The notes below the pieces were generated by a model. It saw only the letters and a list, made by a program, of their open reading frames with translations, did no database searches and was not told the origin of the DNA. Positions 2 through 28,185 of a stretch of 31,651 nt of DNA are shown here, one piece after another. The position numbers and the translations under genes are program-made. The number at the start of each line of letters is the position of its first letter. Position 1 is the stretch's first letter. The DNA is from a bacterium. GTDB lineage: Bacteria; Patescibacteriota; 4484-211; GCA-002791395. The DNA lies in contig JALWZS010000001.1 in the NCBI GenBank assembly GCA_027002475.1, forward strand, positions 1 to 31,651, in the 5' to 3' direction.

Positions 2-919
2 CTTAAATCTGGAGACGTTGTTGTCACAACCGAGATGGAGCATCACTCAAACTATCTGCCGTGGCTCAGGCTTAAAAAGCAAAAAGGAATTAACCTAGTT
101 GTTCTACCTTTCACTAAGGAGTATAGGTTAGACTTTAAGTACCTTTTACGTAGAAATCTGCCAAAAAAGAAAATTAAACTTGTTGCGATAACTCATGCAT
201 CAAACGTTTTTGGAACAGTAAACCCTATTAAAGAGATAATTAGTTATTACAAGTCTGAAGGGATTAATGCGAGGTTTGTTGTGGATGCAGCACAGTCTGC
301 CCCACATATTAAAGTTGATGTACAGGATTTGGGGTGTGACTTTTTGGCGTTTTCATCGCACAAGATGCTAGGTCCTGCTGGCGTTGGAGTGTTGTGGGCA
401 AAGAAAGAGCTTTTAAGCGAGACGGAACCACTTTTTGTTGGTGGGCATATGATTGAGCGAGTAACCAGAAACGAAGTTACGTATGCTCCACCTCCTGCAA
501 AGTTTGAGGCAGGAACAGGAAGGCTTGAAAGTGTTGTTGGGTTAGGAGCCGCAATAGATTACTTAAACCAGCTAGGCATGAATAATATTAAAGAGTATGA
601 AACTAAGCTGACAAACTATGCCCTGCAACGGTTTAATGAACTGACGGGGGTTTCTTTGATTGGTCCGAGGGATTTTAGTAATAGACTTGCCGTTTTTTCT
701 TTTATTATTCACGGAGTTCATCCTCATGATGTTGCAGAAATTTTAAATGAGCAAGGGATTGCAGTTAGAGCGGGACACCACTGCGCACAACCAATAATGA
801 TTAGTTGTGATATTGATGGAACAACAAGAGCATCACTTTACATTTACAATACTAAAGACGACATAGATAAATTAATTGCAGGAACACGCAGAGTAATGGA
901 GGTGTTTCATCCTAAGTAA
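2..919 (+). CDS. sufS: Cysteine desulfurase (class V aminotransferase, SufS/NifS-like), 5' partial
   Basis: The frame is open from the window edge. It carries a SSHKMLGP PLP-lysine region and the C-terminal RAGHHCAQP motif typical of cysteine desulfurases. Confidence 0.85.
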   Translation, partial: LKSGDVVVTTEMEHHSNYLPWLRLKKQKGINLVVLPFTKEYRLDFKYLLRRNLPKKKIKLVAITHASNVFGTVNPIKEIISYYKSEGINARFVVDAAQSAPHIKVDVQDLGCDFLAFSSHKMLGPAGVGVLWAKKELLSETEPLFVGGHMIERVTRNEVTYAPPPAKFEAGTGRLESVVGLGAAIDYLNQLGMNNIKEYETKLTNYALQRFNELTGVSLIGPRDFSNRLAVFSFIIHGVHPHDVAEILNEQGIAVRAGHHCAQPIMISCDIDGTTRASLYIYNTKDDIDKLIAGTRRVMEVFHPK

Positions 920-1045
920 CAAACAACGATCTAAAATTGCAAACAATACTAAAGAGACTCTTAACGTAGCCAAGAAGACTGCTTCTAGCTACTAATGCTC
1001 TTTAAATGTTCATGGGTTGTGATTTGATATTTGTAATTTGAACAT

Positions 1046-1432
1046 ATGTCTGACTCAATATACAAACAAAAAATCTTAGACTACATCGACGATCCAATAA
1101 ATAGTGGACAAATAAAAAAGCCTGACTTAAGGGCACATAAAAGTAATCCGCTATGTGGTGACGAGGTGGACATAACTATTCGACTTGACGGTGACGTGAT
1201 TAAAGATATTAAGTTTTCGTCTAAAGGATGCGCAATTTCAAAGGCGTATGCTTCCATGGCAACGGAGTTGGTTCAAGGTAAAACCTTAAAAGATATTCGA
1301 AAGATGACAGATGAGGATATTGTAAAAGAATTAAATATATGCTTAACTCCAGCTAGATTAAAGTGCGCTCTTCTTGGCTTTAGGACGATTAAAAAGGCAG
1401 CTGATGAAAAAAGCCGTCATCATGAGGAATGA
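1046..1432 (+). CDS. sufU: SufU/IscU-type Fe-S cluster scaffold (NifU N-terminal-like)
   Basis: NPLCGDEV, SKGCAISKAYASMATE and KCALLG motifs match SufU. ATG start at 1046, immediately downstream of sufS. Confidence 0.8.
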   Translation: MSDSIYKQKILDYIDDPINSGQIKKPDLRAHKSNPLCGDEVDITIRLDGDVIKDIKFSSKGCAISKAYASMATELVQGKTLKDIRKMTDEDIVKELNICLTPARLKCALLGFRTIKKAADEKSRHHEE

Positions 1433-1463: not shown

Positions 1464-1673
1464 CTAGCTTTCTGCTTGCTCCCATGCTTCTAGACTTTCC
1501 TTAGCTGCTTGTTCTTCTATCTTTTGCAAGATAACTCCCATTTGTACACGCACGAAGTCGCCGACTTTTATGTTCTCATCACCAACAAATGCGGTTTGGG
1601 TGGTATGCGGGTACTTGATTTCAGCTTTTCTGCCTTCAATTTTTACTACTTTACCTGGAATTGCAATACACAT
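1464..1673 (-). CDS. hypC: [NiFe]-hydrogenase assembly chaperone HypC/HupF
   Basis: N-terminal MCIAIP signature and a VGDFVRVQMGV segment matching the HypC C-terminal core. The size (69 aa) fits the family. Confidence 0.85.
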   Translation of the reverse strand: MCIAIPGKVVKIEGRKAEIKYPHTTQTAFVGDENIKVGDFVRVQMGVILQKIEEQAAKESLEAWEQAES

Positions 1674-1711: not shown

Positions 1712-2233
1712 ATGAGTGATAAAGCCCCAAATGGGAAAAAGAAAATGGCAGTTGGATGGTTCTCTTTTACCTGTTGTGAGGATAGTACTGTTCTTTTTAC
1801 AGAGCTTCTTAATGAAAACTATGACGAGTGGCGGAAGCTTGTTAATTTTCAGCACGTCAAAGCATTAAAAACCGACAACAAATTAGAAGGGTTGGACGTT
1901 GCGTTTGTTGAAGGTGCAATCTCGGCTCCAAGCCAAGAAAAAGAGCTTAAAGAAATCAGGGCAAACGCTAAATACCTTGTGGCGATTGGTTCGTGTGCAA
2001 GTACGGGGTTGCCATCAGCCAGCAGGAATGAATTTAGTGAAGATGACAAAACAGATAGAATCCGTTGGTATTTTGAGACGTTTGATTATGGTGAAAAGGT
2101 GAAACGACTTGACGAAGTTGTTAAGGTGGACGATTATGTAAAAGGATGCCCAATGAATGTGGATGTGTTCTTAGGGGTTCTAACTAAATATTTGCAGAAG
2201 TTTGGGTTGGTAGATAAGGACGTTACAAGTTAG
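1712..2233 (+). CDS. [NiFe]-hydrogenase small subunit (single proximal-cluster type, NuoB-like motif set)
   Basis: The proximal 4Fe-4S ligand motifs are FTCCEDS, GSCASTG and GCP. An alternative ATG lies at 1745 (MAVGWF...). The gene sits directly upstream of the large subunit. Confidence 0.75.
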   Translation: MSDKAPNGKKKMAVGWFSFTCCEDSTVLFTELLNENYDEWRKLVNFQHVKALKTDNKLEGLDVAFVEGAISAPSQEKELKEIRANAKYLVAIGSCASTGLPSASRNEFSEDDKTDRIRWYFETFDYGEKVKRLDEVVKVDDYVKGCPMNVDVFLGVLTKYLQKFGLVDKDVTS

Positions 2234-2315
2234 ATGTTTGTGGCGTCTTATTGCGGGTAAGAATCAAAAGCCATTGGACTGCCACGCTTCGCTCGCAGTG
2301 CCGTGGAATAATAAG

Positions 2316-3620
2316 ATGCATTCTGGGAATATAACAATAGAAAACATAACTAAAGTTGAAGGATCGGCTGGTCTTGAGGTAACTGTAGAAAACGGGCAGG
2401 TAAAGGATTTAAAGTTTAAGATTCAAGATTACCGACGTTTTTACACCGACGCTGTCAAAGGAAAACCGTTTATATCAGTACCGCTATTTTTATCTAGGAT
2501 TTGTGGGACCTGTTCTGTTGCGCATCTTTTTGCTTCCATTAAGGCCATTGAGAAAACACAGGGAATTGAGGTTAGCGAACAAACAAAGATACTACGTCGT
2601 CTTGCATATGACGCCTTGATGATTCGTGACCATGCGTTACACCTTTACTTTTTCGTCTTGCCTGATGTTTTGGGGATTGATTCAATCCTTGATATACCTG
2701 AGGATCATGACAATCCAGCACATATCCTTTTGCACGACTCCTTTGATATAAAGAAGGTAGGTTCCAAGATATCGGAGGCAATTATTGGTGCTGTGGTACA
2801 TGCACCTTATCCAACACCAGGTGGGTTTATTAAATTGCCCGACGATTCAATTTTTCCTGAGCTTATTGAGGATCTAGAAAAGATTCGTCCGCAGGTTATT
2901 CGAGGGATTAAGTTCTTTGCGAACTGGAAAGAGGAATTTATTAGAAACTCTGACTACTTAGCTCTTAGCTCAAATGAGCGTTATGCATTTTTAGAGGGAG
3001 ATGTTGTAAATAGCTCAGGTCGTAGAGTGGGGGAAGATAACTTCTACGACTTTTTAAGGTCTGTCGTTATCCCTTACTCGCAAGCTGAAGGATATGTGTT
3101 TTCTGATGTTCACGAGGACTATTTTGTGGGTTCACTTGCTAGACTTAACTTTAATAAAGACAAACTTAACGAATTTACTAAGCGAGATATTGCAAAATAC
3201 TTGGACTTATTCCCATCTGATAACATACATCACAACGATTTGGCACAAGCAATTGAGATCTTGCATTGTGTCGATGATGCTATAGATATCCTGAAAAACC
3301 TTAAGATAAAAGACGAGAAACCAATTAGGAAGGCGCCACAAAAGGGTAGAGGTGTTGGGGTTGTCGAGGCACCTAGAGGCATTTTGTACCATATGGCAGA
3401 AACTGATGAAAAGGGCATGATAGTTGATTATGATGTTATTGTCCCTACTTCACAAAACCAGATAAACATAGAAAACGACTTAAAAAAGTACTTTAATGAG
3501 AATATTGGTACAAAAAGTCGGGAGGAGCTTAAATTTGATGCTGAAAAGATAATACGAGCTTATGATCCTTGCATGTCTTGTGCTACCAACTTCCTTAAGA
3601 TGGAGTGGATTGATTCTTGA
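2316..3620 (+). CDS. [NiFe]-hydrogenase large subunit
   Basis: L1 motif RICGTCSVAH and L2 motif DPCMSCATN, with a 9-residue C-terminal tail. The N-terminal region (VEGSAG ... YRRFYTDAVKG) has a group 1-3-like architecture. The ATG at 2316 is preferred over the TTG at 2238. Confidence 0.8.
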   Translation: MHSGNITIENITKVEGSAGLEVTVENGQVKDLKFKIQDYRRFYTDAVKGKPFISVPLFLSRICGTCSVAHLFASIKAIEKTQGIEVSEQTKILRRLAYDALMIRDHALHLYFFVLPDVLGIDSILDIPEDHDNPAHILLHDSFDIKKVGSKISEAIIGAVVHAPYPTPGGFIKLPDDSIFPELIEDLEKIRPQVIRGIKFFANWKEEFIRNSDYLALSSNERYAFLEGDVVNSSGRRVGEDNFYDFLRSVVIPYSQAEGYVFSDVHEDYFVGSLARLNFNKDKLNEFTKRDIAKYLDLFPSDNIHHNDLAQAIEILHCVDDAIDILKNLKIKDEKPIRKAPQKGRGVGVVEAPRGILYHMAETDEKGMIVDYDVIVPTSQNQINIENDLKKYFNENIGTKSREELKFDAEKIIRAYDPCMSCATNFLKMEWIDS

Positions 3621-3955
3621 GGGATAGGCTTTCCCATAGGGATACCAATTATGGTTAGGCGTTTAAGCTTACCTAGTTTCTTTAAGTATTTTAGTTGAAA
3701 ATTAAGGTCAAAGTCATGTGCGGAAACTCTTGGTGAAAGCGCTAGGTTGTCAATCGCACTTTCATCAAATAGTGTTACTTTTTCTAAGCCTTGTACTGTG
3801 TCCATAATGACAACATGAGGCTCGTCGTCAAAGGGTAAATCCTCGTTGGGCTTAACAAAGCGCCAAGTAATTCCTTTAATATTTGTTGATGTAGCAATCT
3901 CAAGTGGCTTAGAATCAATTACTACGTCTGGATTTCCAAAGACGTAAATAGTCAT
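3560..3955 (-). CDS. Hydrogenase maturation endopeptidase (HycI/HoxW/FrhD family)
   Basis: Matches the family at VFGNPDVVIDS near the N-terminus and at VIMDTVQG and SAHDFDL. It is convergent with the large subunit and overlaps it by 61 nt. Confidence 0.65.
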   Translation of the reverse strand: MTIYVFGNPDVVIDSKPLEIATSTNIKGITWRFVKPNEDLPFDDEPHVVIMDTVQGLEKVTLFDESAIDNLALSPRVSAHDFDLNFQLKYLKKLGKLKRLTIIGIPMGKPIPQESIHSILRKLVAQDMQGS

Positions 3956-4023: not shown

Positions 4024-4734
4024 GTGGATATAAAGGCTTTGCAGCTTGCATGTAGGTTTGCGCTGCCTCCTAATGCTAAAGGGTATTGTGGTAGGAACAG
4101 TGCTCCTGCAAAATTCATAAAGTGCATAGAGCAGGGGAGCTGTGAAGAAGTGATGGAAGAGATTGAAAAATTTATTGTTTTGCACCCATACCTTAAAACA
4201 ATTGCTGATATTGTTGAAAAAAATAAATTCGACTACGATGTTATAGAGGCGTATTGGCTAGGAAACGACCTGTTAAAAAAGATAAAACCTTTTCATTATG
4301 ATTTACTTTTAGAAAACTTTGCGAAACAAGGAGTACCCGATTTTTTTATTAAGACTTTACAAGAAGAAAAACCCAAAGGGTTTGTACCAACACATCTTTT
4401 TCAAGTGATACATGTAGGTGTGGGGCGAGCAAGCGGTGTGGTCCCGTTTAATCTTGCAAGCATCAATGAATGTATGATTCGGTGGGGTAAAGTGCTAGAG
4501 ATAAATAATAAGTCTGCTTTAGTTTTAATAAATAGTCTTAAGCAGGAGGCTAAAATGTATGTTTTGGCTACTGAAGAAGTTACTATAAATCTTGAAAGCG
4601 GACTAGAAAGCAATTTGCAAGTTGGGCAGGCAGTTGCAGTTCATTGGGGAAATATTATAAAAGTTCTGAATGATGTTGAGATAGAAAAAATAGAATTTTG
4701 GACTAATAAAACGCTTGATGCTTGTAATCAGTAA
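4024..4734 (+). CDS. Hypothetical protein; N-terminus is Cys-rich and the C-terminal segment resembles the HypC core
   Basis: 236-aa ORF with a GTG start. Cysteines occur in GYCGRN...CIEQGSCEE. The C-terminal VGQAVAVHWGNIIKVL...EIEKIE resembles HypC VGDYVLVHVGFAIEKI. I did not recognise a known family. Confidence 0.45.
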   Translation: MDIKALQLACRFALPPNAKGYCGRNSAPAKFIKCIEQGSCEEVMEEIEKFIVLHPYLKTIADIVEKNKFDYDVIEAYWLGNDLLKKIKPFHYDLLLENFAKQGVPDFFIKTLQEEKPKGFVPTHLFQVIHVGVGRASGVVPFNLASINECMIRWGKVLEINNKSALVLINSLKQEAKMYVLATEEVTINLESGLESNLQVGQAVAVHWGNIIKVLNDVEIEKIEFWTNKTLDACNQ

Positions 4735-5633
4735 GCGGCTATTTGCTGTGGCTCGCTTGCTAAAGTTGCTTTATAAATAAGCCAGACACCTACCCCCACA
4801 AGTACTAATTGTGATAAGAACCCTTCGTTTAGTGTATGTGTGACAAAGAACGCTGAAAGAATGTTAGTGATTATTGTTGCTCCAACTAGGATTGACGCGA
4901 CCGTGATTGCAGGGGCATATTTTAGTGCTCTGTACCAAGTGGTTACATAAAGAAGAAGCGTTGACATAGTAATAACCATCCAAAACGCTTGTTCTGAGGA
5001 GATTTGTTTAAGACTACTAAGTGAAAACGAGCCGCTTATTGTCGCTATCAGGAGCAAAATTACTGCTCCGCCTGCCATTCTCGCAGTTGCTAATACATCC
5101 GGATCGAGCTTTTTTAACGCTTTTTTAGCAATGATTGTTTCTACTGCCCAAAGAATGGTTGCTGATAATACCATTAGCTCTCCTGTACTATATGTAAGAC
5201 CTTTAAATCCCCCGATCATGAAGTTGCTAATAAACAAAACCGTAACAGCAATAATCTTTGAAATAGTTGGCTTTTCTTTTAAGAAAAAGATGGCTAAAAT
5301 TGCTACCCAAATAACAAGCGTTTTGTGTATAAGTGCTGCATTTATTGCAGGAATAATTGATAGACCAGTAAAGAAAAGGTAAAAAGGCAAAGCCCCACCA
5401 ATTACAGCAATACTAACAAGAAGCAATTTTTGCTGCTTATTCACATGCAAGAGTGTTCGCCATTTTGCGGTTGCTAATATCCAAATAAGTAAAATCAGTC
5501 CAACACCGGCGTTTTTAATGGCTGTGAATGCGATTGGAGGTGTAATAGCGCCGACTGCAAACTTATTAACAAAAATTGCAATACCAGAAACAAGGGCTGT
5601 TAAAAAAGCTAACTTAACTCCTCGCTTAACCAT
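4728..5633 (-). CDS. DMT-superfamily (EamA-like) transporter
   Basis: About 10 predicted TM helices across 301 aa with a duplicated 5-TM architecture, and a glycine-rich hydrophobic composition. Confidence 0.6.
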   Translation of the reverse strand: MVKRGVKLAFLTALVSGIAIFVNKFAVGAITPPIAFTAIKNAGVGLILLIWILATAKWRTLLHVNKQQKLLLVSIAVIGGALPFYLFFTGLSIIPAINAALIHKTLVIWVAILAIFFLKEKPTISKIIAVTVLFISNFMIGGFKGLTYSTGELMVLSATILWAVETIIAKKALKKLDPDVLATARMAGGAVILLLIATISGSFSLSSLKQISSEQAFWMVITMSTLLLYVTTWYRALKYAPAITVASILVGATIITNILSAFFVTHTLNEGFLSQLVLVGVGVWLIYKATLASEPQQIAAY

Positions 5634-5679: not shown

Positions 5680-5931
5680 TTACGCGGGCCAGAGTTGTTC
5701 GCCGGTTTCGATATCTTTTACAATAATCGCCTTTACTGGGCAAGCTTGCGCAGCCATTAGGATTGTGTCTGGAAGATCAGAAGTCTCCTCATTCATTACT
5801 GCAATGTTGTTTTCATCTAGCTCGAATGTGTCGGGAGCCATTGCAACACATGTTGCCGCACCAATACAAACATCTCTTAGTAAAGTAACCTCGTATTTTC
5901 CGACCTTTATTACTTGTGTATTATCTGCCAT
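5680..5931 (-). CDS. Small ferredoxin (single [4Fe-4S]/[3Fe-4S] cluster type)
   Basis: CIGAATC...P...ACPVKAI motifs as in Pyrococcus-type ferredoxin. The ATG start is preceded by AAGGAGGTG with a 7-nt spacer. Confidence 0.75.
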   Translation of the reverse strand: MADNTQVIKVGKYEVTLLRDVCIGAATCVAMAPDTFELDENNIAVMNEETSDLPDTILMAAQACPVKAIIVKDIETGEQLWPA

Positions 5932-5948
5932 CAACTTACACCTCCTTT

Positions 5949-6806
5949 TTAACTATATGACTTTAGAATCTCTTTTAACCCATCTCGTTTAATTGGGATT
6001 TTAACAATTGGTGTTTGTTTTAATTGTGGGAAGTGTGACTCATTAGTTGGTTTTTCTACTTCATAAAATATACCAACAGGAATGTCATTTTCACCAAACT
6101 CCATTGCTTTCATAAATGCTGCTGCCTTATCTGTCCTGTCCCAGTCGTCAGGTAACGGAGTTGTGTTTTGTTGATAAAAAGTGTGAGTACAAACTTTGTG
6201 GAATGTAACGCAGGGTTGTAGTACGTCAATTATTGCGATTCCTTTGTGCTTGTTGGCCTTAATGAGTATCTCTTTTAGGTTTTTAATGTCACCTGAATAA
6301 ACTCTGGCAACAAATGTTGCGCCTGACGCAATTGCAAGCGCTGCTGGTGAAAACGGTTTGTCTGGGTTACCAAACGGTGTTGATTTAGTCGGATATCCTT
6401 GTTGAGTAGTTGGTGATGTTTGACCTGTTGTTAGCGAGTAAAGCTCGTTGTCATGAATAACTACTGTAATGTCATGATTACGCCTGCATGCGTGGATAAA
6501 GTGGTTTCCGCCTTCACCCATACAGCCACCGTCTCCGATGAAAGAAAATACATTAAGTTTATGGTTTGCCATTTTTATGCCTTCTGCAACTGGAAGTGCA
6601 CGACCATGTAATCCTTCAACCGAATTGATTTTTGTAAAGTTAACGATATGACCATTACAGCCAATATCTGCAGTCATTGCGGTGTTGGTATTATCCCAGC
6701 CTTGCTCTACTGCTGCATTTTTAAATGCTGCCCAAATTGTGTAGTTGCCGCATCCTGGACACCAGTTTGGTTGGTGTGGTGTTGCTAAATCAGCTAGCGT
6801 TGTCAT
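5949..6806 (-). CDS. 2-oxoacid:ferredoxin oxidoreductase beta subunit (TPP-binding)
   Basis: N-terminal WCPGCGN plus GDGG motifs. Its start overlaps the stop of the alpha subunit (ATGA). Confidence 0.85.
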   Translation of the reverse strand: MTTLADLATPHQPNWCPGCGNYTIWAAFKNAAVEQGWDNTNTAMTADIGCNGHIVNFTKINSVEGLHGRALPVAEGIKMANHKLNVFSFIGDGGCMGEGGNHFIHACRRNHDITVVIHDNELYSLTTGQTSPTTQQGYPTKSTPFGNPDKPFSPAALAIASGATFVARVYSGDIKNLKEILIKANKHKGIAIIDVLQPCVTFHKVCTHTFYQQNTTPLPDDWDRTDKAAAFMKAMEFGENDIPVGIFYEVEKPTNESHFPQLKQTPIVKIPIKRDGLKEILKSYS

Positions 6807-8533
6807 GAACTTACTCCTTTCTTTAGTACTTCTTCTATTTTATTTTGAATCTCCTTTGGATAAAATGGACGACCGTCGTATTTAAGTAACGTGTCATCAA
6901 CTACAAATCCAGTTTTTTCGCGAAGTAATCCGGTAAAGTGAGCGCCATAGTTTAACTCAGCACTAATTGTGTATTTTGCCTTTTCTAGCATTCTAGTTAG
7001 AGCCTGCGTTGGGAAGGGGTTCATCCACTTTACTTGGATAAAGTTGACATTGTCGTATTTTTCAATTGCTTGCAAGATTGCACCTTTGGTACTACCCCAA
7101 GAAATTATTGTAATGTCTGCATTTTCTGGGCCGTGCAGAACTGGTTCTTCCATGTCTTCTCTTGCACATGTTTCAAGCTTTCTCATGCGTTTTCGCATTT
7201 GGGTGTTTCGATTATCGATCTCTTCGCTTGAGTAACCGTATTCATCATGCTCGTCTGAGTTGGCAATAAAGAAGTTGCCGACACCAGCAGCTGAACGCAC
7301 GGAAATACCATCTTCGCTATCTGCGTAGCGTTTGTAGTTAGGAGTTGGCTCCATAGTAAACTTACCTCGATCTATCTTGTAGTCAGAGTAGTCAAAGTAT
7401 GGATAGTTTTGGTCGCTTTCACAAAGGTCTTTGTCGATGAGTACCACAACTGTAGTTTGGTACTTTTCTGCCAAATTAAACGCTTGCATTGTGGTATAAA
7501 AAACCTCTTTAGTATCACCAGGTGTTAGAACAATTCTTGGAAAGTCGCCTTGATGTGCATGCAAGACCAATCTTAAATCGCTTTGTTCACTCCAAGTTGG
7601 AAGTCCTGTTGCTGGTGCCCCGCGCATTCCTTCGATAATTACAAGTGGCGTTTCTGTAATTCCAGCAAGTCCGTAAGTTTCTGCCATTAAGCTAAACCCG
7701 CCGCCTGAAGTTGCAACCATTGACCTAGCACCTGCAAAAGCTGCTCCAATTGCCATATTCATTGCTGCTATCTCATCTTCCGGTTGTTTGTAAATGTAGT
7801 TAAACTCTTCTTGATGACGAGCCAATACATGTAAGATATTGGAGATTGGGGACATTGGGTAAATAGCTGCAAACTGCATACCAGCTGCAATTGCACCAAG
7901 CGCGGCTGCTTCGTTGCCGTTAAGTACCATTTTGTGCTCACCCTTTTCTGCTGGTTCTAGTGGGTTGGTAAATTTGTGTCCAAAGTTCTTGAGAGCAAAA
8001 TCGTAACCTAATTGAGCCGCTTTTTTGTCAGAAGCGACGATTTTTTCACCCTTATCACCAAATTCATCTTCAATGAGCTTAAACATGATGTTTAAATCTC
8101 CTCCCATAATTCCAACAACTGCCCCTAGCGCCACTGTGTTGATTAAAATGTCAGAGCCGCCTGCTTCCTTTGCAAACTGAGCTAGCGGAATAGGGCAAAG
8201 GTGAACAGTTTCAGGAACGTTATCAGTGTTTAATTTTTTGTCGGAATCGAAAAGGAGTCCAGCGCCAGGAGTTAGTTCCTCTAAATGTTTATCTATGGTT
8301 TCTTGATTTAGGGCAATTAAAAAGTCTATCTTGGACTGAGTGGCGGCAACGTTGCCTTTTGATATGTTTACCTGCATTACGTTATGTCCACCTCGAATGA
8401 TTGAGGGGTATTCAACGTGTGTGAAAATGTTATATCCGGATCGGCTGGCAAACCTAGCGAGTAAAATCCCAGAGGCCTTTATACCTTGTCCGGCCATGCC
8501 TCCAATTGTTACTGTAAAGATTTTACTTTCCAC
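6803..8533 (-). CDS. 2-oxoacid:ferredoxin oxidoreductase alpha subunit with a fused N-terminal gamma domain
   Basis: The N-terminus GGMAGQG...EYPSIIRGG is a POR gamma domain, followed by the alpha catalytic domain. The GTG start overlaps the upstream TAG by 1 nt and is preceded by AGAGAGG. Confidence 0.8.
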   Translation of the reverse strand: MESKIFTVTIGGMAGQGIKASGILLARFASRSGYNIFTHVEYPSIIRGGHNVMQVNISKGNVAATQSKIDFLIALNQETIDKHLEELTPGAGLLFDSDKKLNTDNVPETVHLCPIPLAQFAKEAGGSDILINTVALGAVVGIMGGDLNIMFKLIEDEFGDKGEKIVASDKKAAQLGYDFALKNFGHKFTNPLEPAEKGEHKMVLNGNEAAALGAIAAGMQFAAIYPMSPISNILHVLARHQEEFNYIYKQPEDEIAAMNMAIGAAFAGARSMVATSGGGFSLMAETYGLAGITETPLVIIEGMRGAPATGLPTWSEQSDLRLVLHAHQGDFPRIVLTPGDTKEVFYTTMQAFNLAEKYQTTVVVLIDKDLCESDQNYPYFDYSDYKIDRGKFTMEPTPNYKRYADSEDGISVRSAAGVGNFFIANSDEHDEYGYSSEEIDNRNTQMRKRMRKLETCAREDMEEPVLHGPENADITIISWGSTKGAILQAIEKYDNVNFIQVKWMNPFPTQALTRMLEKAKYTISAELNYGAHFTGLLREKTGFVVDDTLLKYDGRPFYPKEIQNKIEEVLKKGVSS

Positions 8534-11391
8534 TATGAAAACCTCTCTTTATAAATCTTATCTTTTGTGGCGCCATTTGCAAGTAGCACTTCTGTTGCGC
8601 TTTCTATCATTGCTGGGTGACCACACAAATACGTGCTTGTATCGCTTGCATCTTTAAAGTTTTCTTTTACTAACTCGGTGACAAATCCAGAATGTCCTTT
8701 CCACTTAGTCGTTGGTTTCCAGATTACATATTCAAAGTTAAAGTTTTTGTATTTTCGTTTTAGTGCTTCGAAGTGTTTTTTCCAGAATATCTCCTTTTCG
8801 TAGCTTAATCCGAAATAGAGCGTAATCGGACGTTTTTCGTTTAGTTTAGTTAGTGCCGTGTCAATCATGCATCGGACTGCACTAATCCCTGAGCCAGTAG
8901 CTAAAAATAGCAAGCGCTTAGAGTTGTCGTTATGATTGAAGGTAAACATTCCAAATGGTCCCATATAGGTCATGATGTCGCCGACCTTTAGTTTGTCAAA
9001 AAACTGTGAGCCTGGTCCTCCGGGGCGGGTATCAACAAGTAAGCCAAAGTGGTATTCGTCGGTATAGGTGGCAATAGAGTAAGCACGGATGTTTTTAGGG
9101 TCGACTTTTACACTGATATATTGACCGGGTTTTAAAAGTAATGGGGTTTGTGTTTTAAATTCTAAATAGTTAAATTGAGTTGCCAAGACTTCGTGTTTTG
9201 TGCATGTGGCGGTTTGTAATTGTGGTGGCTTTGGGGTGGGCTTTGCTCCGTCTCTTAGGATGATTTTTCCATCAACGGCAAATACATCATTTAACGTGAC
9301 AACAACTGGGTTTATCTCGATATCACTAGCGTTTGTGGCTTTTTCGGCAAGCTTGCCAACCTTTACAATCAGGTCATATAGTTTATCAAGTGCATAAGGA
9401 GGATCGCCTCTGTAACCATTTAGTATTTTAGCAATCTTTGACTTTTGCACCAGGGCTTTTGCTTCTTCGTGACCTATCGGAAACAACTGTAGGTTTCTAT
9501 CTTCAATAACTTCCGCATATGTTCCGCCAGCGCCAAACAACATTACATTACCAAATGTTGGGTCTCTTTTAACACCGACTATAACCTCGATCCCTTGCAT
9601 AATTTGTTGTTGAATTTGAATTTTAGTTTTGCTTTGAACCTCTTTATCAAGCTCACCGAGTACATGTGTTAGTTGGTTAAAGGCACTATCGAGCATATTG
9701 GGGTTTTTAATATTTGTTATCACGCCGCCAGCATCTTTTTTATGAAGAAGTCCTGGTGCGGAAAGCTTTAAAACAACAGGCCACCCATTCTCCATTGCAA
9801 ATACTGTTGCCTCATGTACGTCTTTAACGTATTTGGTTTTTGGGGTGTTAAGCCCGCAATGTCTTAATACTTCATCTGCTTCGATATTGCCAAGTGTCTT
9901 GTCTTTACTACTTATTGCTTTGTTTATTACGTCTTGAATTGCTGAAAGGTTTATATTGACTTCTTTTGTCTCATTTTTGGTCTTTTGCGTATGTTTTAGA
10001 GTGTGTTGCTTGAAACGCCACATTCTAGAGATTGCCGCAATTGCTTGTTCTGGAAACCTAAATGATGGGATTTTGTAGGAGTTTAAGATTTCTTCGCCTT
10101 CTTTTATTAGCCGTCCTCCAATAAATGCGCAAAAGATTGGTTTCTTGTACTTATTCCAGAGCCTTCCAATTGTTTTAGCGGTCTTTTCAACTTCTGTCAT
10201 AACTTGTGGTGTAAGGATGACAACTACTGAGTCAACCTCATCACTTGGCAGGATCGCTTCTAGTGCTTGAGAGTAACGTTTGGCTAATGCATCTCCGAGT
10301 ACATCAACAGGGTCTTTTATTGCAGCTTCACGTGGTAAGTTCTTTTTTAGTTCCTCTTGGGTTTCCTTACTCAACTTAGCAAGTTCAAGCCCACTGCTTT
10401 CAACTGCATCGGCGCTTATAACAGCAGGACCACCCGCGTTAGAAACTATAGCAACTCTAGGACCTTTGGGCAGTTCGCTCCATGCAAATGCGCGTGAAAG
10501 TAAGAAGAATTCTTCGAGTGTTTCGCAGTGGACAACTCCTGCTTGTTTCATCGCAGCCTTTAAAACATCATTGCTTCCTGCAATTGCACCAGTGTGTGAT
10601 TGCATTGCGTGTACCGCCGCTTTAGTTTTTCCAGGTTTTAGAAGGAGTATCGGATTTTTTTTAGAGATCTCTGTAGTTAAGCGTAAGAATTCTTTCCCGT
10701 TTGAAATTGACTCTAGATAGAGACCGATAGGAGAGAGCGAAGATAATCCATCTTGGTGAACTTCTTTAGGCAATTCGTTTTCTAGAAAGTATTTTAAAAA
10801 GTCGTTTTCTGTTAGGTCTGCTTTATTTCCAAGCGTTATAAACTCGCTATAGCCTAAATCTACACTGTCGAACCAGTCAAAGAGACTCGATGCGATTGCT
10901 CCTGATTGAGTTATATAACGCAAGTTTCCAGGAGTTGGAACGGATTGGGCAAATGTTGCATTGACCGGTAGGATGTTATTGACGAATCCTAAGCAGTTAG
11001 GTCCTAATATGTTCATGGAGTACTTTTGAGCAGTGTTTGTAACTTTTTTCTCAAGTACTTTCCCTTGGGAGCCTGCTTCTTTAAAACCTGCTGAAATTAT
11101 GATTACATTTTTTACATTACGTTCTCCTAATTCGTTTAGTACGTTGGGTACTATGTCGGCTGGCACAACAACTATTGCAAGGTCTGGTGGCTCTGGTAGG
11201 TCTAGAATGCTGTTACAAACCTCAAGTCCTTGAATATGCTTTGCATGCGGATTAACAGGATACACTTTACCTTCGTATTTAGAGTTAATAATGTTTCGAA
11301 GAATTATAGAACCAGTTTTTTTCTCAGAGCGGGAAGCTCCAATTACTGCTATAGATTTTGGGGCAACGAAGCTACTTAAATTGCAATCCAC
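8533..11391 (-). CDS. ADP-forming acetyl-CoA synthetase (fused alpha-beta, ACD) with a C-terminal ferredoxin-NADP reductase-like FAD/NAD(P)-binding domain
   Basis: The N-terminus KSIAVIGAS...VNP is a CoA-binding domain and an ATP-grasp beta domain follows, together about 700 aa. After a Pro-rich linker PTPKPPQLQ come RAYSIA, GGPGSQF, ATGSGIS, YLCGHP and a terminal ERF, which are hallmarks of the FNR family. Confidence 0.75.
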   Translation of the reverse strand: MDCNLSSFVAPKSIAVIGASRSEKKTGSIILRNIINSKYEGKVYPVNPHAKHIQGLEVCNSILDLPEPPDLAIVVVPADIVPNVLNELGERNVKNVIIISAGFKEAGSQGKVLEKKVTNTAQKYSMNILGPNCLGFVNNILPVNATFAQSVPTPGNLRYITQSGAIASSLFDWFDSVDLGYSEFITLGNKADLTENDFLKYFLENELPKEVHQDGLSSLSPIGLYLESISNGKEFLRLTTEISKKNPILLLKPGKTKAAVHAMQSHTGAIAGSNDVLKAAMKQAGVVHCETLEEFFLLSRAFAWSELPKGPRVAIVSNAGGPAVISADAVESSGLELAKLSKETQEELKKNLPREAAIKDPVDVLGDALAKRYSQALEAILPSDEVDSVVVILTPQVMTEVEKTAKTIGRLWNKYKKPIFCAFIGGRLIKEGEEILNSYKIPSFRFPEQAIAAISRMWRFKQHTLKHTQKTKNETKEVNINLSAIQDVINKAISSKDKTLGNIEADEVLRHCGLNTPKTKYVKDVHEATVFAMENGWPVVLKLSAPGLLHKKDAGGVITNIKNPNMLDSAFNQLTHVLGELDKEVQSKTKIQIQQQIMQGIEVIVGVKRDPTFGNVMLFGAGGTYAEVIEDRNLQLFPIGHEEAKALVQKSKIAKILNGYRGDPPYALDKLYDLIVKVGKLAEKATNASDIEINPVVVTLNDVFAVDGKIILRDGAKPTPKPPQLQTATCTKHEVLATQFNYLEFKTQTPLLLKPGQYISVKVDPKNIRAYSIATYTDEYHFGLLVDTRPGGPGSQFFDKLKVGDIMTYMGPFGMFTFNHNDNSKRLLFLATGSGISAVRCMIDTALTKLNEKRPITLYFGLSYEKEIFWKKHFEALKRKYKNFNFEYVIWKPTTKWKGHSGFVTELVKENFKDASDTSTYLCGHPAMIESATEVLLANGATKDKIYKERFS

Positions 11392-18179: not shown

Positions 18180-19109
18180 ATGTGGCTTGTAGTCATTGTA
18201 ACTCTAGTCCTCCTTGTGGGAGGACTTTTGGGTAGCGCATGGTTTCTTTTGCGTTACCTGATTTACGGGGAGTGGAGAGGAGGCCGCTGGTCTCCCAAAG
18301 ACTTTGGGCTCGATGGGGAATGGATTGAGTTCAAGTCTTTGGATGGTAGCATAATCCACTCCTATCGGGTCTCTCCTGATGAGCCCACTGCCTGGGTTGT
18401 GATAGCCCACGGTTTTAACCCCACCGGCGGCTTTGTGGGTGCGGCTGAATTTTGGCCGTATGCCAAAAAGTTCGTTGGTGCCGGGTACGGGGTTCTGGTC
18501 TTAGACCTACCCGGCTTTGGGCTATCTCCTCGGCGCGCTCGAGGATACCGTCTTGGTTTCCTCGAGTGGTGGGACGCAGTTGCTGCGTATGAGTTCTTGC
18601 GATTTGAGCTTAAGATCGACTTGCCGGTTGGTCTTTTTGCTAAATCGGCTGGAACTCCAGCAGCTATCATTGCCGCTGCCCAAGGATGTGCTGACTTTGT
18701 AGTGTTAGAGTCAGCAATTGCATCCTTTCGGTCGCTCATGGTTGCGCAGTTGCAGTACCATGGGCTACCGCGGATGCTCGCGCTCCCGTTGGCAGCAGTG
18801 TTGGATCTTGTTTGGCGATATGGGTTTAATCACAGCGGGGTGATTGACCCAATAGATGTCGCCCGCGGGATTGGCGTTCCAATCCTCTTCCTTCGGGGTG
18901 GTCAAGATCCTGAGGTCCTGGAAGAGGACACGGTTTTCCTTGCTGAGGAAATTGGGCGCTTGGCAACTGTGAGGTACTTTGCAGCTGCTGGGCACAACAT
19001 CCTCAGACTCAATGGGGAGCCGGCGCACCTCATTAATAAGGAGGAGGCGAAAAAGGCATGGGCGGATACCTTTGCCTTTTTAAGAAACGTAACAACTGGG
19101 AGGCGGTAG
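18180..19109 (+). CDS. Alpha/beta-fold hydrolase, a high-GC paralogue of 17182..18075
   Basis: VVIAHGFNPTGG and AKSAGTPAA are homologous to the neighbouring gene, but GC is about 53-60% and the sequence is rich in Arg, Ala, Gly and Trp. It has a perfect SD (AAGGAGGTGAGAAATG) and a GGGTATAAT -10-like element upstream. Confidence 0.8.
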   Translation: MWLVVIVTLVLLVGGLLGSAWFLLRYLIYGEWRGGRWSPKDFGLDGEWIEFKSLDGSIIHSYRVSPDEPTAWVVIAHGFNPTGGFVGAAEFWPYAKKFVGAGYGVLVLDLPGFGLSPRRARGYRLGFLEWWDAVAAYEFLRFELKIDLPVGLFAKSAGTPAAIIAAAQGCADFVVLESAIASFRSLMVAQLQYHGLPRMLALPLAAVLDLVWRYGFNHSGVIDPIDVARGIGVPILFLRGGQDPEVLEEDTVFLAEEIGRLATVRYFAAAGHNILRLNGEPAHLINKEEAKKAWADTFAFLRNVTTGRR

Positions 19110-26594: not shown

Positions 26595-27836
26595 TTAAGG
26601 GGTTGGTTGTGGAGTCGGCGTTGAGGTGGGTAGCGCTTGCTGGAAGAAAAACGGCGGTTGCGCCCCGGCTTCATTCGTGAAAAGTGTGCTGGGCACATCC
26701 CCTTGCCAACGCTGAATGGCTTCGTAAGTGAGAATGTTGGGGTCCGATGCGATTTGCTGGCGGATTAGCTCCAGGGCTTTAGCATCAGCTTGTGCCCTTA
26801 AAATCCGCGCCTGGCTATCGCCTTCGGCCTTCAAAATCTCTGCCTTCTTTTGCGCTTCAGCGGCGGCCACCTTGGCCTTGCCTTCATTGGCGGCTTTTTC
26901 TTCGAGCTGGGCCGCGATCTCTACGTCCATTTGAGCGGCCTCGAGCTGCAGCCGTTTCTCGGCTTGGGTTTTCAGCTGCGCCTCGAATTCCGGTGAGTAG
27001 TTGAAGAAACTGATAGCAACATCAGTAACTTCAACCAGGCCGCCAAGCTTTGCTTGCAGCTCGGTCTTGATCTCATCCTGAGCTTCTTTCTTGTGCACGC
27101 CAAAGTAATCATATGGATGTGCACCTGAAACTGATTTGACCGCATTGATAGCGGCTTCTTTGACCAGGACCTTTTCGTAATCAGGCCCATATCGCAAGTC
27201 AAGGAGCTTCATGGATTCGATTGGGACTGAGAGCTGCGTTAGCTCAAGCTCTTTACCTTCCTCGACGGGCAGTCGGAACCAAATCACAACATCCGGGTAA
27301 ATCTCCGGTCGACCAGTTGTGTTGGTGTCCGCTTGGATGTCGTAGATCTTCATTGGGCGAATCCGTGTCGTGTAGCGATTCACTCGAGACACGAACGGTG
27401 TTGCCCAGTGGGTTCCAGGACCAACAACTCGGTATCCAACGTTTGGGAACGACTGTCGGATGACGCCGACATTCGTTGGGGTCACGACCTGCAGCCCCGC
27501 GAAGAACAGATACCCGGCAATGCCCACCATCGCGAACACCTTTGCCCAGCGGTGGCGGCTTTTCGAGCCAGCTTCGGGGTATCCTTCGAGGAACAGATCG
27601 TAGTAACCCCAAACAAGTGAGACCAGAATGATTAGCAACATGACCCCCTGCAATGCGTCTGGCCATGCAAAGGCGCTGCCGTCATCCTGGAACTCAAAGG
27701 TAGTGGTGACCGTCTCTCGGTCGACTGGCACTGCTTTCCCTGCTTCTGGTGTGGGGGTTGCTGGTGCACATGCCATTAAGGCGGTGGCGAGCAAACCGAC
27801 AACAAGGATGAGCAGGACAATTTTTCGAAGTTTCAT
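26595..27836 (-). CDS. SPFH/Band 7 family protein (lipoprotein-like N-terminus), in a high-GC insert
   Basis: LLATALMAC lipobox-like signal, an SPFH core and a long Ala/Glu/Lys coiled coil. GC is about 55-58%, against about 38% in the flanks. Perfect SD GGAGGT. Confidence 0.75.
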   Translation of the reverse strand: MKLRKIVLLILVVGLLATALMACAPATPTPEAGKAVPVDRETVTTTFEFQDDGSAFAWPDALQGVMLLIILVSLVWGYYDLFLEGYPEAGSKSRHRWAKVFAMVGIAGYLFFAGLQVVTPTNVGVIRQSFPNVGYRVVGPGTHWATPFVSRVNRYTTRIRPMKIYDIQADTNTTGRPEIYPDVVIWFRLPVEEGKELELTQLSVPIESMKLLDLRYGPDYEKVLVKEAAINAVKSVSGAHPYDYFGVHKKEAQDEIKTELQAKLGGLVEVTDVAISFFNYSPEFEAQLKTQAEKRLQLEAAQMDVEIAAQLEEKAANEGKAKVAAAEAQKKAEILKAEGDSQARILRAQADAKALELIRQQIASDPNILTYEAIQRWQGDVPSTLFTNEAGAQPPFFFQQALPTSTPTPQPTP

Positions 27837-27934: not shown

Positions 27935-28185
27935 AGGGTAACGGTAAGTGTAATGTGCGTTTGGGACAGCGTCGCTGGGGATTATACTGTAAAACATACG
28001 TTTCTGCAATAAATTGAGTAGGTGCTACTGTTACTTTTTATATGCCGATATATTTTTTATATCAACAATGTAAGATTTATACCATGCCCCAGGCGGAATG
28101 TCAACCTTATATTTTTAATATATCTGCAAGCTGGATATTGCTTGATTTATGCACAAATTATCAACATGTGGTATATAATATTTAT

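What the first reader, a model, noticed from the sequence alone, without database searches (positions are those of the whole stretch)
1712..3955. Minimal two-subunit [NiFe]-hydrogenase with mixed-group features and no diaphorase/FeS partner genes
Only a ~170-aa small subunit and a ~435-aa large subunit are present, with HypC upstream and the protease downstream. The large-subunit N-terminal region looks group 1-3-like (VEGSAG...RRFYTDAVKG...RICGTCSVAH). The small subunit carries the tandem-cysteine proximal motif FTCCEDS, then GSCASTG and GCP, which I associate with NuoB and group 4 small subunits rather than the CxGC of soluble group 3 enzymes. No HydB/HydG-like or membrane subunit genes are adjacent. 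The only nearby FNR-like module is the one fused to ACD on the other strand. The physiological electron partner is therefore unclear and may be the adjacent ferredoxin or the FNR fusion.
Basis: partly seen in the sequence, partly recalled or inferred. Interest (0 to 1): 0.55.

Follow-up and report, generated by a model that had tools for sequence, protein, structure and literature searches.

The report
Two-subunit CPR nickel-iron hydrogenase
This is a real, stripped-down nickel-iron hydrogenase of an ultra-small (CPR/Patescibacteria) bacterium, a type already described in 2020 as "hyd2", and its odd double-cysteine motif comes from ordinary group 3b enzymes rather than from respiratory complex I.

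Summary
The genes are as described: HypC (1464-1673, -), a 173-aa small subunit (1712-2233), a 434-aa large subunit (2316-3620) and a HycI-like protease (3560-3955, -). No HydB/HydG or membrane subunits occur in the window or 10 kb upstream.

This is the CPR-specific, group-3b-related "hyd2" clade of Jaffe et al. 2020: truncated small subunit, no beta/gamma subunits, function left open. It has thousands of homologues.

The "mixed-group" reading fails.
- Both subunits score best on group 3b (P. furiosus SHI).
- Group 4 small subunits (HycG, MbhJ) carry CxxC, not CC.
- NuoB's CC sits at the second canonical Cys. Here CC sits at the first, and the second is Ser.
- Ordinary 240-270-aa 3b small subunits also carry CC[EQ]GC.

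The small subunit has exactly four Cys, so at most one cluster.

HypC, small, large, protease and DUF6390 (a HypC-fold protein) are syntenic in 14/14 loci. A P. furiosus-type ferredoxin, a 2-oxoacid:ferredoxin oxidoreductase and the ACD::FNR fusion follow in most. In DPANN relatives, FNR-, TrxR- or NuoF-like flavoproteins are fused to the same small subunit.

Most likely function (inferred): a ferredoxin-linked, H2-evolving fermentative electron sink. Direct FNR coupling is the main rival.

The parts
1464..1673 (-). HypC-type [NiFe] maturation chaperone (69 aa, N-terminal Met-Cys), divergently transcribed from the small subunit
   Evidence: PF01455 3e-15 and TIGR00074 above cut-off. Present in 14/14 related loci.
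1712..2233 (+). Truncated [NiFe]-hydrogenase small subunit (173 aa). It keeps only the N-terminal flavodoxin-like domain and has four Cys in total.
   Evidence: PF01058. Best NCBIfam hits are HydD, FrhG and ShyD, matching only positions ~3-154 of the 261-position HydD model. Family profile vs PDB: SHI delta 1e-16. AF2 pLDDT 84; Foldseek top hit 9e1j_A.
1766..1786 (+). FTCCEDS motif (F19-S25). C22 is the canonical first proximal-cluster Cys, C21 is an extra Cys, and S25 replaces the canonical second Cys.
   Evidence: HMMER register against SHI delta ALTSCYGC. C21, E23 and D24 are invariant; C22 and S25 are >=90% conserved. Variants are listed.
1994..1996 (+). Cys95 (GSCAS), third predicted proximal-cluster ligand
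   Evidence: Invariant in alignment A1. Aligns with GACA of SHI delta.
2147..2149 (+). Cys146 (GCPM), fourth predicted proximal-cluster ligand
   Evidence: Invariant. Aligns with GCPP of SHI delta and NuoB.
2316..3620 (+). [NiFe]-hydrogenase large subunit (434 aa from ATG 2316; the mechanical ORF starts at TTG 2238)
   Evidence: PF00374. Best NCBIfam hits: ShyA 1e-69 and HydA 8e-63. Best PDB hits: T. kodakarensis and P. furiosus group 3b alpha, 4e-55 and 1e-52, full length.
2496..2513 (+). L1 metal-binding motif RICGTC (R61-C66)
   Evidence: Position. The motif (R[IV]CGTCS[VI]AH) is conserved in 14 loci.
3564..3590 (+). L2 metal-binding motif DPCMSCATN (D417-N425). Asn occupies the position of the usual His/Arg cleavage residue, followed by a 9-aa tail.
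   Evidence: Conserved in 14 CPR loci. DPANN relatives keep His at this position.
3560..3955 (-). Divergent HycI/HybD-like maturation endopeptidase (131 aa). It overlaps the large-subunit 3' end by 61 nt, antisense.
   Evidence: PF01750 1.5e-4 and TIGR00072 3e-4, both below cut-off. HycI hits in orthologues. Conserved GNxD, D and H positions.
4024..4734 (+). DUF6390 protein: an N-terminal helical domain plus a C-terminal HypC-fold domain. Probable extra maturation factor; part of the conserved core.
4728..5633 (-). EamA/DMT-family permease, frequently syntenic with the hydrogenase
   Evidence: PF00892. Present in CPR loci and in DPANN loci L016 and L017.
5680..5934 (-). Single-cluster ferredoxin (84 aa, pI about 4.05) with only three Cys (CIGAATC...CP). 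Candidate electron partner.
   Evidence: PF13370 and PF13459. Best PDB hit is P. furiosus ferredoxin 1siz_A, with Ala at the Asp14 ligand position. Present in 9 of 13 CPR loci with downstream DNA and next to the DPANN operon.
5949..8533 (-). Two-subunit 2-oxoacid:ferredoxin oxidoreductase (beta 5949-6806, alpha 6803-8533), source of reduced ferredoxin
   Evidence: NF008820 4.5e-97 and TIGR03710 3.8e-188, above cut-off. Synteny.
8533..11391 (-). ADP-forming acyl-CoA synthetase fused to a C-terminal FNR-type FAD/NAD(P) module (module at about 8533-9255)
   Evidence: Pfam domains. The FNR module is best matched by the MmoC/BenC/Fre reductase modules (1e-37); HydG reaches only 9e-13. It is 30% identical (E 5e-29) to the FNR modules fused to hyd2-type small subunits in other lineages.

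Best explanation
Identity (high confidence). This is a member of the CPR-specific, group-3b-derived minimal [NiFe]-hydrogenase clade that Jaffe et al. 2020 called hyd2.

What the sequence shows:
- The large subunit has a complete NiFe site: four Cys, the proton-relay Glu in KVEG, and the APRG Arg.
- It has its own HypC, a HycI-like protease and a second HypC-fold protein (DUF6390).
- The small subunit has lost the C-terminal domain that carries the medial and distal clusters in SHI. Its four Cys (C21, C22, C95, C146) can bind only a proximal [4Fe-4S] cluster.

Mechanism (inferred, about 50%). With no internal FeS wire, the proximal cluster exchanges electrons directly with a soluble partner. 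In this genome the partner is most likely the adjacent P. furiosus-type ferredoxin. The neighbouring 2-oxoacid:ferredoxin oxidoreductase reduces that ferredoxin. The enzyme would then vent fermentative reducing power as H2, while ACD makes ATP from the acyl-CoA. The FNR module on ACD would offer the same ferredoxin pool a second outlet to NAD(P)+.
For: Identity:
- Best hits of both subunits are group 3b.
- Small-subunit length, CPR origin, nearby HypC and absence of beta/gamma subunits all match the published hyd2 description.

Functional catalytic site and maturation set:
- Motifs are conserved in 14 loci.
- HypC and protease are present.
- DUF6390 has a HypC fold.

Single cluster:
- Only four Cys in the small subunit.
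- The HydD model is matched only over positions 3-154 of 261.
- A clade that lost the mid Cys but carries CCEGC shows that position 21 can act as a ligand.

Ferredoxin link:
- Ferredoxin lies in 9 of 13 CPR loci with downstream DNA, OFOR in 7 and ACD::FNR in 8.
- A DPANN operon at 45% large-subunit identity has the same set: OFOR, ferredoxin, EamA, DUF6390, HypC and protease.
- The ferredoxin's closest solved relative is P. furiosus Fd. From my own knowledge, that protein carries electrons from POR to a hydrogenase.
- Searched from the other side, 18 loci matching the ACD::FNR query with about 7 kb or more of downstream DNA nearly all carry OFOR, and most carry ferredoxin, but only 9 carry the hydrogenase. 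The FNR is therefore tied to OFOR/ferredoxin, and the hydrogenase is an add-on to that ferredoxin-centred module.
Against: - No biochemistry exists for this clade.
- The ferredoxin has three Cys (CxxAxxC...CP). It may therefore hold a [3Fe-4S] cluster, whose potential could be too positive for H2 evolution.
- Three CPR loci (L011, L014, L015) have no ferredoxin or OFOR within 6-9 kb.
- In related lineages the same small subunit is fused to NAD(P)H-dependent flavoproteins. That points to nicotinamide rather than ferredoxin coupling as the family's general habit.
- HypA/B/D/E/F were not seen in the window or in the flanks of any CPR locus. I could not scan whole genomes.
- The ligand set of the cluster is not settled. 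Some family members have CSEDS, which keeps only C21, so D24 could be a ligand instead of C22.
Confidence: 0.55

Rival explanations
1. NAD(P)H-linked minimal hydrogenase. The FNR module at the C-terminus of ACD docks directly on the truncated small subunit, giving the path FAD to proximal cluster to NiFe. It would replace the beta/gamma diaphorase of group 3b, and ferredoxin would not be the direct partner.
For: - hyd2-type small subunits with the same FS[FC]CCEDS motif, 52-60% identical to the window protein, are fused to FNR-like modules (P0379-P0388).
- Others are fused to TrxR-like flavoproteins (about 30 clusters) and to a NuoF-like module (P0136).
- These fusions sit in full hydrogenase operons.
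- The window's FNR module is homologous to the fused ones (30% identity, E 5e-29).
- ACD::FNR lies in 8 of 13 CPR loci.
Against: - The FNR here is tethered to ACD, not to the hydrogenase.
- ACD::FNR is almost always next to OFOR, but next to the hydrogenase in only 9 of 18 informative loci.
- The window's FNR module resembles generic MmoC/BenC/Fre reductase modules (1e-37) more than anything hydrogenase-specific.
- Ferredoxin is retained next to the operon even where FNR is fused to the small subunit.
- NAD(P)H to H2 is uphill except at very low H2 (general thermodynamics).
Confidence: 0.2
2. An ordinary four-subunit group 3b (sulf)hydrogenase whose HydB/HydG genes are simply encoded elsewhere in the genome.
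For: - The large subunit is most similar to ShyA/HydA.
- Only about 40 kb of the 79-kb contig, and no whole genome, could be inspected.
- Jaffe et al. left open whether hyd2 genomes have beta/gamma subunits.
Against: - The small subunit lacks the whole C-terminal two-cluster domain that wires delta to beta in SHI: four Cys only, and HydD model positions 155-261 are unmatched.
- No beta/gamma genes lie within about 10 kb in 14 genome loci.
- The truncation is consistent across thousands of sequences.
Confidence: 0.07
3. One reading: a chimeric enzyme whose small subunit is NuoB- or group-4-like (tandem-Cys N2-type cluster) paired with a group 1-3-like large subunit.
For: - A CC pair followed by GxCxxxG and GCP is superficially like NuoB's CC...GxCxxxG...GCPP.
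- Weak NuoB HMM hits exist at E 1e-5 to 1e-3.
Against: - The NuoB hits cover only the C-terminal GCP region.
- Group 4 HycG and MbhJ have CxxC, not CC.
- NuoB's CC is offset by three residues from this CC.
- CC[EQ]GC occurs in ordinary full-length 3b small subunits.
- Fold hits rank SHI delta first and complex I PSST from rank 9.
Confidence: 0.03
4. A non-catalytic or sensory relic: an H2 sensor, or a decaying enzyme in a reduced genome.
For: - The genome is reduced.
- No HypA/B/D/E/F genes were seen nearby.
- Asn replaces the His/Arg at the C-terminal processing site.
- Two histidine kinases and a response regulator lie in the window at 13.1-16.2 kb.
Against: - All NiFe ligands and catalytic residues are conserved across loci that share only about 50-75% identity.
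- A dedicated HypC, protease and DUF6390 are retained in 14/14 loci.
- The kinases are about 10 kb away and are not found in related loci.
- From my own knowledge, sensory hydrogenases typically lack the protease and the C-terminal extension.
Confidence: 0.05

Closest known systems
CPR 'hyd2' group-3b-related [NiFe]-hydrogenase (Jaffe et al. 2020, BMC Biol 18:69; PMC7304191)
   Same: - CPR origin.
[quoted passage not shown]
- Small subunit consistently truncated (published mean 164 aa; 173 aa here).
- HypC nearby, and no beta/gamma genes on the same strand or close by.
- The NAD-binding protein on the other strand and the small FeS protein family they mention match the ACD::FNR fusion and the ferredoxin seen here.
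   Different: Nothing essential; this locus is a member. The text I could read does not discuss the Cys register, the single-cluster consequence, DUF6390 as a HypC-fold protein, the OFOR-ferredoxin-ACD::FNR synteny, or the DPANN flavoprotein fusions. It calls the function 'uncertain'.
Group 3b soluble hydrogenases SHI/SHII of Pyrococcus furiosus and the cytosolic enzyme of Thermococcus kodakarensis (PDB 9nez, 9e1j, 5yxy)
   Same: - These are the best sequence and fold matches for both subunits.
- Same L1/L2 Cys motifs.
- Cytoplasmic, with no signal peptide.
   Different: - The SHI delta subunit is 261 aa with three clusters and works with the beta and gamma diaphorase subunits. Here the small subunit has one cluster and there are no beta/gamma genes.
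- CCEDS replaces SCYGC.
- Asn replaces His after DPCxxCxx.
- Scores are far below the NCBIfam equivalog cut-offs: 235 vs 700 bits for ShyA, and 43 vs 500 bits for HydD.
Single-cluster small subunits of other soluble [NiFe] enzymes: HoxY of the group 3d NAD+-reducing hydrogenase (5xf9_C, 189 aa) and the small subunit of the electron-bifurcating NiFe-HydABCSL (7t2r_E, 179 aa)
   Same: - Similar length and fold (Foldseek ranks 3 and 6; TM normalised to target 0.63-0.66).
- Proximal cluster only, so electrons leave directly to another protein.
   Different: - Those enzymes have dedicated HoxFU or HydABC diaphorase subunits encoded alongside; none is present here.
- Sequence similarity is lower than to group 3b.
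Complex I NuoB/PSST (cluster N2, tandem Cys) and group 4 small subunits (HycG, MbhJ)
   Same: - Same PF01058 fold.
- One [4Fe-4S] cluster.
- A vicinal Cys pair is possible as ligands; strained tandem ligation is established for N2 (PMC8042128).
   Different: - The CC pair is in a different register.
- Group 4 has CxxC, not CC.
- There are no membrane subunits.
- HMM similarity is weak and only C-terminal.
P. furiosus POR - ferredoxin - hydrogenase fermentation route (functional analogue; from my own knowledge)
   Same: The ingredients are the same: a 2-oxoacid:ferredoxin oxidoreductase, a P. furiosus-type single-cluster ferredoxin, ADP-forming acyl-CoA synthetase and a [NiFe]-hydrogenase.
   Different: In P. 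furiosus the ferredoxin-oxidising hydrogenase is the membrane-bound, ion-pumping group 4 MBH. Here it would be a soluble two-subunit enzyme that conserves no energy. That would be a new role for a group 3 enzyme, and it is untested.

Membership tests
[NiFe]-hydrogenase (catalytic large subunit) | Two CxxC pairs (RxCGxC near the N-terminus, DPCxxC near the C-terminus) that bind Ni and Fe | tested here: met
   RICGTC at residues 61-66 and DPCMSC at 417-422. The motifs are conserved in 14 loci. PF00374 is above cut-off.
[NiFe]-hydrogenase (catalytic large subunit) | C-terminal extension removed by a specific endopeptidase after His/Arg of DPCxxCxxH/R | tested here: inconclusive
   A 9-aa tail and an adjacent HycI-like protease are present. 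The cleavage residue is Asn in all 14 CPR loci and His in DPANN relatives. Processing itself cannot be tested in silico.
Group 3b (SHI/SHII-type) hydrogenase | Large subunit closest to group 3b references | tested here: met
   ShyA 1e-69 and HydA 8e-63, versus VhuA 1.5e-41 and FrhA 7e-35. PDB: 3b 4e-55, versus Mvh 1e-44 and 3d 2e-31. The scores are below the equivalog cut-offs. No reference phylogeny was run.
Group 3b (SHI/SHII-type) hydrogenase | Small (delta) subunit of about 240-260 aa with proximal, medial and distal FeS clusters | tested here: not met
   173 aa, four Cys only. Only positions 3-154 of the 261-position HydD model are matched.
Group 3b (SHI/SHII-type) hydrogenase | Beta (HydB) and gamma (HydG) diaphorase subunits, normally co-encoded | tested here: not met
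   None in the window, in 10 kb upstream, or in the flanks of 13 other loci. The rest of the genome was not searchable.
CPR hyd2 clade (Jaffe et al. 2020) | CPR genome; group-3b-related large subunit; small subunit truncated to about 164 aa; HypC nearby; no co-located beta/gamma subunits | tested here: met
   Relatives are WWE3, Woesebacteria, Shapirobacteria and other Patescibacteria. The small subunit is 173 aa; HypC is adjacent; there are no beta/gamma genes. Placement in their actual tree was not tested.
NuoB / complex I PSST-type subunit | Tandem CC at the position of the second Cys of the hydrogenase CxxC (GLACCAVEM), ligating N2 | tested here: not met
   NuoB's CC aligns with G16-C17 of HycG's C14-N-G-C17. 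The window's CC aligns with S-C of SHI's S-C-Y-G-C, and position 25 is Ser.
Group 4 membrane-bound hydrogenase small subunit | CxxC(E/D)IE motif, best similarity to HycG/MbhJ/EchC, and co-encoded membrane subunits | tested here: not met
   HycG and MbhJ show CNGC. MbhJ scores E 0.49 against the window protein. No membrane subunits are present.
Group 3d (HoxEFUYH) hydrogenase | Single-cluster HoxY plus HoxF/HoxU NADH diaphorase | tested here: not met
   The single-cluster small subunit is analogous. No PF01512 or PF10589 genes lie in the window. The 3d large subunit is a weaker hit than 3b. One distant relative (P0136) does carry a NuoF-like fusion.

The most novel reading that the evidence does not exclude
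The CPR/DPANN minimal enzymes would form their own functional subgroup of group 3. It would be a two-subunit soluble [NiFe]-hydrogenase whose single proximal cluster has an unusual N-terminal ligand pair: vicinal Cys21/Cys22, or Cys21/Asp24. That cluster would plug directly into interchangeable partners: free ferredoxin in CPR, and fused FNR-, TrxR- or NuoF-like flavoproteins in DPANN. In this bacterium it would be a ferredoxin-dependent, non-energy-conserving, H2-evolving [NiFe] enzyme. That role is so far attributed to [FeFe] hydrogenases and membrane-bound group 4 enzymes. DUF6390 would be a new HypC-fold maturation factor.
Probability: 0.35. Interest if true: 0.6.

Novelty: already known. 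Interest (0 to 1): 0.35.

Why it matters
CPR bacteria and DPANN archaea are abundant fermenters in anoxic groundwater and sediments, and their H2 output feeds neighbouring hydrogenotrophs. The hyd2 clade is large (thousands of sequences) and has never been characterised.

If it is a soluble, ferredoxin- or simple-flavoprotein-coupled two-subunit [NiFe] enzyme, two things follow:
- It would be the smallest natural [NiFe]-hydrogenase module with a defined partner, which makes it attractive for engineering.

For this scan, the practical points are that the locus is a member of an already described clade and that the 'NuoB-like' feature is a misreading.

Tried and rejected
- **NuoB/group 4 affinity.** Rejected after explicit alignments to solved HycG, MbhJ and NDUFS7 chains and to SHI delta.
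- **FNR module as a displaced HydG.** Rejected. It scores 1e-37 on MmoC/BenC-type reductase modules against 9e-13 on HydG, and it has no 2Fe-2S domain.
- **DUF6390 as the missing FeS subunit.** Rejected. Its conserved Cys do not form an FeS pattern, and its C-terminal domain is a HypC fold. A sequence search of the PDB gave nothing, and no paper mentions DUF6390.
- **First metagenome scan with the single ACD::FNR sequence.** It found no relatives. Repeating it with an alignment worked.
- **First motif tally.** It used a mis-registered column map; it was corrected. The motif labels in the NJ tree are shifted by one residue, so that tree was used only to show that CCEDS/CSEDS sequences form their own clade.
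- **Neighbours in CPR loci lacking ferredoxin/OFOR.** These were scanned for other redox partners; only housekeeping genes turned up.
- **tRNA scan.** No tRNAs in the window.
- **Not possible with these tools:** fetching whole genomes to look for HydB/HydG or HypA/B/D/E/F; modelling the heterodimer or measuring Cys geometry (no coordinates are returned); looking up genomic context for proteins returned only by the representative search.
- **Literature.** Searches for hyd2-type enzymes in later papers found only Jaffe et al. 2020. The 2024 CPR paper (PMC10811913) treats the four-subunit form.


Full report
**What is there.**
The window (about 39% GC) is part of a 79-kb metagenomic scaffold of a CPR/Patescibacteria bacterium. 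The closest relatives of its hydrogenase genes come from WWE3, Woesebacteria, Shapirobacteria and other Patescibacteria MAGs. The finding's coordinates hold four genes:
- HypC, 1464-1673 (-).
- A 173-aa PF01058 small subunit, 1712-2233 (+).
- A PF00374 large subunit. The mechanical ORF starts at TTG 2238; the start used in the public record is ATG 2316, giving 434 aa.
- A 131-aa divergent HycI-like protease, 3560-3955 (-).

All quoted motifs are present. No HydB/HydG, HoxF/U or membrane subunits occur in the window or in the 10 kb upstream.

**It is already described.**
Jaffe et al. [quoted passage not shown] They noted an NAD-binding protein on the other strand and a small FeS protein family near some members. 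They concluded that 'its function remains uncertain'. This locus fits that description point for point. The small subunit has 2357 homologues in the large protein collection. The best 120 are 158-197 aa long, and 111 of them carry SFTCCEDST. I found no later paper that resolves hyd2.

**Classification of the subunits.**
- Large subunit: it scores best on ShyA (1e-69) and HydA (8e-63), ahead of VhuA and FrhA. It aligns over its full length with T. kodakarensis and P. furiosus group 3b alpha subunits (4e-55 and 1e-52).
- Small subunit, sequence: a profile of 34 family members hits P. furiosus SHI delta at 1e-16 across positions 5-161 of 167. NuoB/NdhK reach only about 1e-3, and only around GCP.
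- Small subunit, structure: the AF2 model (pLDDT 84) finds SHI delta first. Next come the 179-aa small subunit of the bifurcating NiFe-HydABCSL, MvhG and HoxY. Complex I PSST appears from rank 9.

**The CC motif.**
- *Register against group 3b.* HMMER aligns FSFT-C21-C22-E-D-S25 with ALT-S-C-Y-G-C of SHI delta. C22 is therefore the canonical first Cys, S25 replaces the canonical second Cys, and C21 is an extra Cys.
- *Register against NuoB and group 4.* Solved group 4 small subunits have CxxC: HycG has GGCNGCEIE and MbhJ has GSCNGCDIE. NDUFS7/NuoB (GLACCAVEM) aligns so that its CC equals the residue before the second Cys plus the second Cys. The N2 tandem pair is documented in PMC8042128. The window's CC is thus three residues away from NuoB's, and group 4 has no CC at all.
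- *CC in ordinary 3b enzymes.* Among 50 representatives of conventional length (>=220 aa), nine carry CC[EQ]GC. The five tested score full-length on the HydD/ShyD models.
- *Which residues are ligands.* In the family, C21, E23, D24, C95 and C146 are invariant, and C22 and S25 are >=90% conserved. A related short clade has lost the mid Cys (GSGA) but carries CCEGC, which shows that a Cys at position 21 can serve as a ligand. Some hyd2 members have CSEDS, so C21/D24 ligation cannot be excluded. The protein has exactly four Cys, so it can hold one cluster only.

**Catalytic competence.**
Across 14 loci that share 68-76% large-subunit identity but only about 30-60% for accessory genes, the following are conserved:
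- R[IV]CGTCS[VI]AH, APRG and DPC[MV]SC[AS]TN in the large subunit.
- The protease's D/D/H positions.
- HypC's N-terminal Met-Cys.

One oddity is that Asn replaces the His/Arg after which the endopeptidase normally cuts. Two DPANN relatives keep His there.

**Neighbourhood.**
- *Core.* HypC, small, large, protease and DUF6390 occur in 14/14 loci.
- *Downstream genes.* Of 13 loci with downstream DNA, 9 have the ferredoxin, 7 have the two-subunit OFOR and 8 have the ACD::FNR fusion. Three loci have only unrelated neighbours.
- *The ferredoxin.* Its closest solved relative is P. furiosus Fd. It has three Cys, with Ala at the Asp14 ligand position.
- *The FNR module.* It resembles MmoC/BenC/Fre reductase modules (1e-37) far more than HydG (9e-13) and has no 2Fe-2S domain.

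**Fusions in relatives.**
hyd2-type small-subunit domains (same CCEDS motif, 52-60% identical to the window protein) occur fused to three kinds of flavoprotein, mostly in DPANN archaea:
- FNR-like modules (P0379-P0388).
- TrxR-like PF07992 flavoproteins (about 30 clusters).
- A NuoF-like module (P0136).

One such operon (L016) carries OFOR, flavodoxin, HypA, HypC, DUF6390, EamA, FNR::small, large, protease and ferredoxin. That is the same gene set as here. A TrxR::small operon (L017) has no ferredoxin or OFOR nearby. These fusions show that the truncated small subunit passes electrons directly to a flavoprotein in some lineages.

**Which partner here?**
I searched from the ACD::FNR side using an alignment-based metagenome scan. 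Among 18 loci matching the ACD::FNR query with about 7 kb or more of downstream DNA:
- Nearly all have OFOR, and most have the ferredoxin.
- Only 9 have the hydrogenase.

ACD::FNR-OFOR-ferredoxin is therefore a self-standing module, and the hydrogenase core is an optional neighbour of it. That favours ferredoxin as the shared hub and the hydrogenase's direct partner: 2-oxoacid to reduced ferredoxin to H2, with ACD making ATP. The FNR would be a second outlet to NAD(P)+.

Direct FNR docking remains a serious rival because of the fusions. I put ferredoxin coupling at about 50%, direct FNR coupling at about 20%, and hidden beta/gamma subunits at under 10%. All of this is inference from sequence and synteny; nothing has been measured.

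**Verdict.**
- The 'mixed-group/NuoB-like' interpretation is wrong.
- The partner hypotheses are reasonable.
- The architecture itself was published in 2020, so the finding is already known. The physiological partner, the ligand set of the single cluster and the role of DUF6390 remain open and are now more sharply testable.

Noticed in passing
window 3560-3620: The large subunit's last 20 codons (including the Ni-binding DPCMSCATN) and the protease's last 20 codons (...LRKLVAQDMQGS) overlap antisense by 61 nt. The same 61-nt overlap is seen in L002, L004 and L005. It is 32 nt in DPANN locus L016 and absent in L017.
   Followed up: partly
window 4024-4734 (+): DUF6390 is uncharacterised and no paper mentions it. 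It is a two-domain protein whose C-terminal half is a HypC fold, with an internal Cys (C150) aligned to HypC's essential Cys2. It accompanies the hydrogenase in 14/14 CPR loci. Shorter HypC-like proteins of 159-166 aa sit in the DPANN operons.
   Followed up: yes
window 3588-3590 (Asn425 of the large subunit): All 14 CPR hyd2 large subunits have Asn where [NiFe]-hydrogenases have the His/Arg that marks the endopeptidase cleavage site. They also have EG[SNT] instead of EGH near the N-terminus. DPANN relatives at 45-49% identity keep both His residues.
   Followed up: partly
window 5680-5934 (-): The ferredoxin has only three Cys (CIGAATC...CP), with Ala where P. furiosus Fd has its Asp14 ligand. 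It may therefore bind a [3Fe-4S] cluster. The pattern is conserved in CPR loci and in the DPANN locus L016.
   Followed up: partly
window 8533-11391 (-): This is a 952-aa fusion of a complete ADP-forming acyl-CoA synthetase with a C-terminal FNR-type FAD/NAD(P) module. It is widespread in metagenomes and almost always lies next to a two-subunit OFOR and the small ferredoxin, with or without the hydrogenase. Why a redox module is fused to a non-redox ATP-forming enzyme is unexplained.
   Followed up: partly
window 4728-5633 (-); L016 9097-9999; L017 9078-10001: An EamA/DMT-family permease is conserved beside the hydrogenase genes in both CPR and DPANN operons. This suggests a functional link, such as metal or metabolite transport.
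   Followed up: no
proteins P0201, P0239, P0252: These distant relatives of the small subunit are fusions of a NiFe small-subunit domain, two 4Fe-4S domains and an [FeFe] H-cluster domain. They correspond to the 'hybrid hydrogenases' of Greening et al. 2024 (PMC11216029). P0218 fuses a response regulator and a histidine-kinase ATPase domain to a small-subunit domain.
   Followed up: no
proteins P0131, P0141, P0143, P0144, P0148, P0158: These are other clades of short (about 160 aa) single-cluster small subunits with different first motifs: TCDEGC, TGDEGC, and CCEGC with the mid Cys lost. Small-subunit truncation and ligand shuffling have probably happened several times in group 3. Their genomic contexts could not be looked up.
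   Followed up: no
window 18180-19109, 26595-27836, 28042-29055: Two ORFs, an alpha/beta hydrolase and an SPFH/Band-7 protein, lie in regions of about 50% GC against a 38-40% background. A tyrosine recombinase lies next to the second one, so this may be acquired DNA.
   Followed up: no
window 35-1432 and L001 5616-9721: A SUF Fe-S assembly cluster (SufC, SufBD, SufS, NifU-like) lies immediately upstream of HypC here and in L004 and L005. That places Fe-S biogenesis next to an FeS-rich gene set.
   Followed up: no
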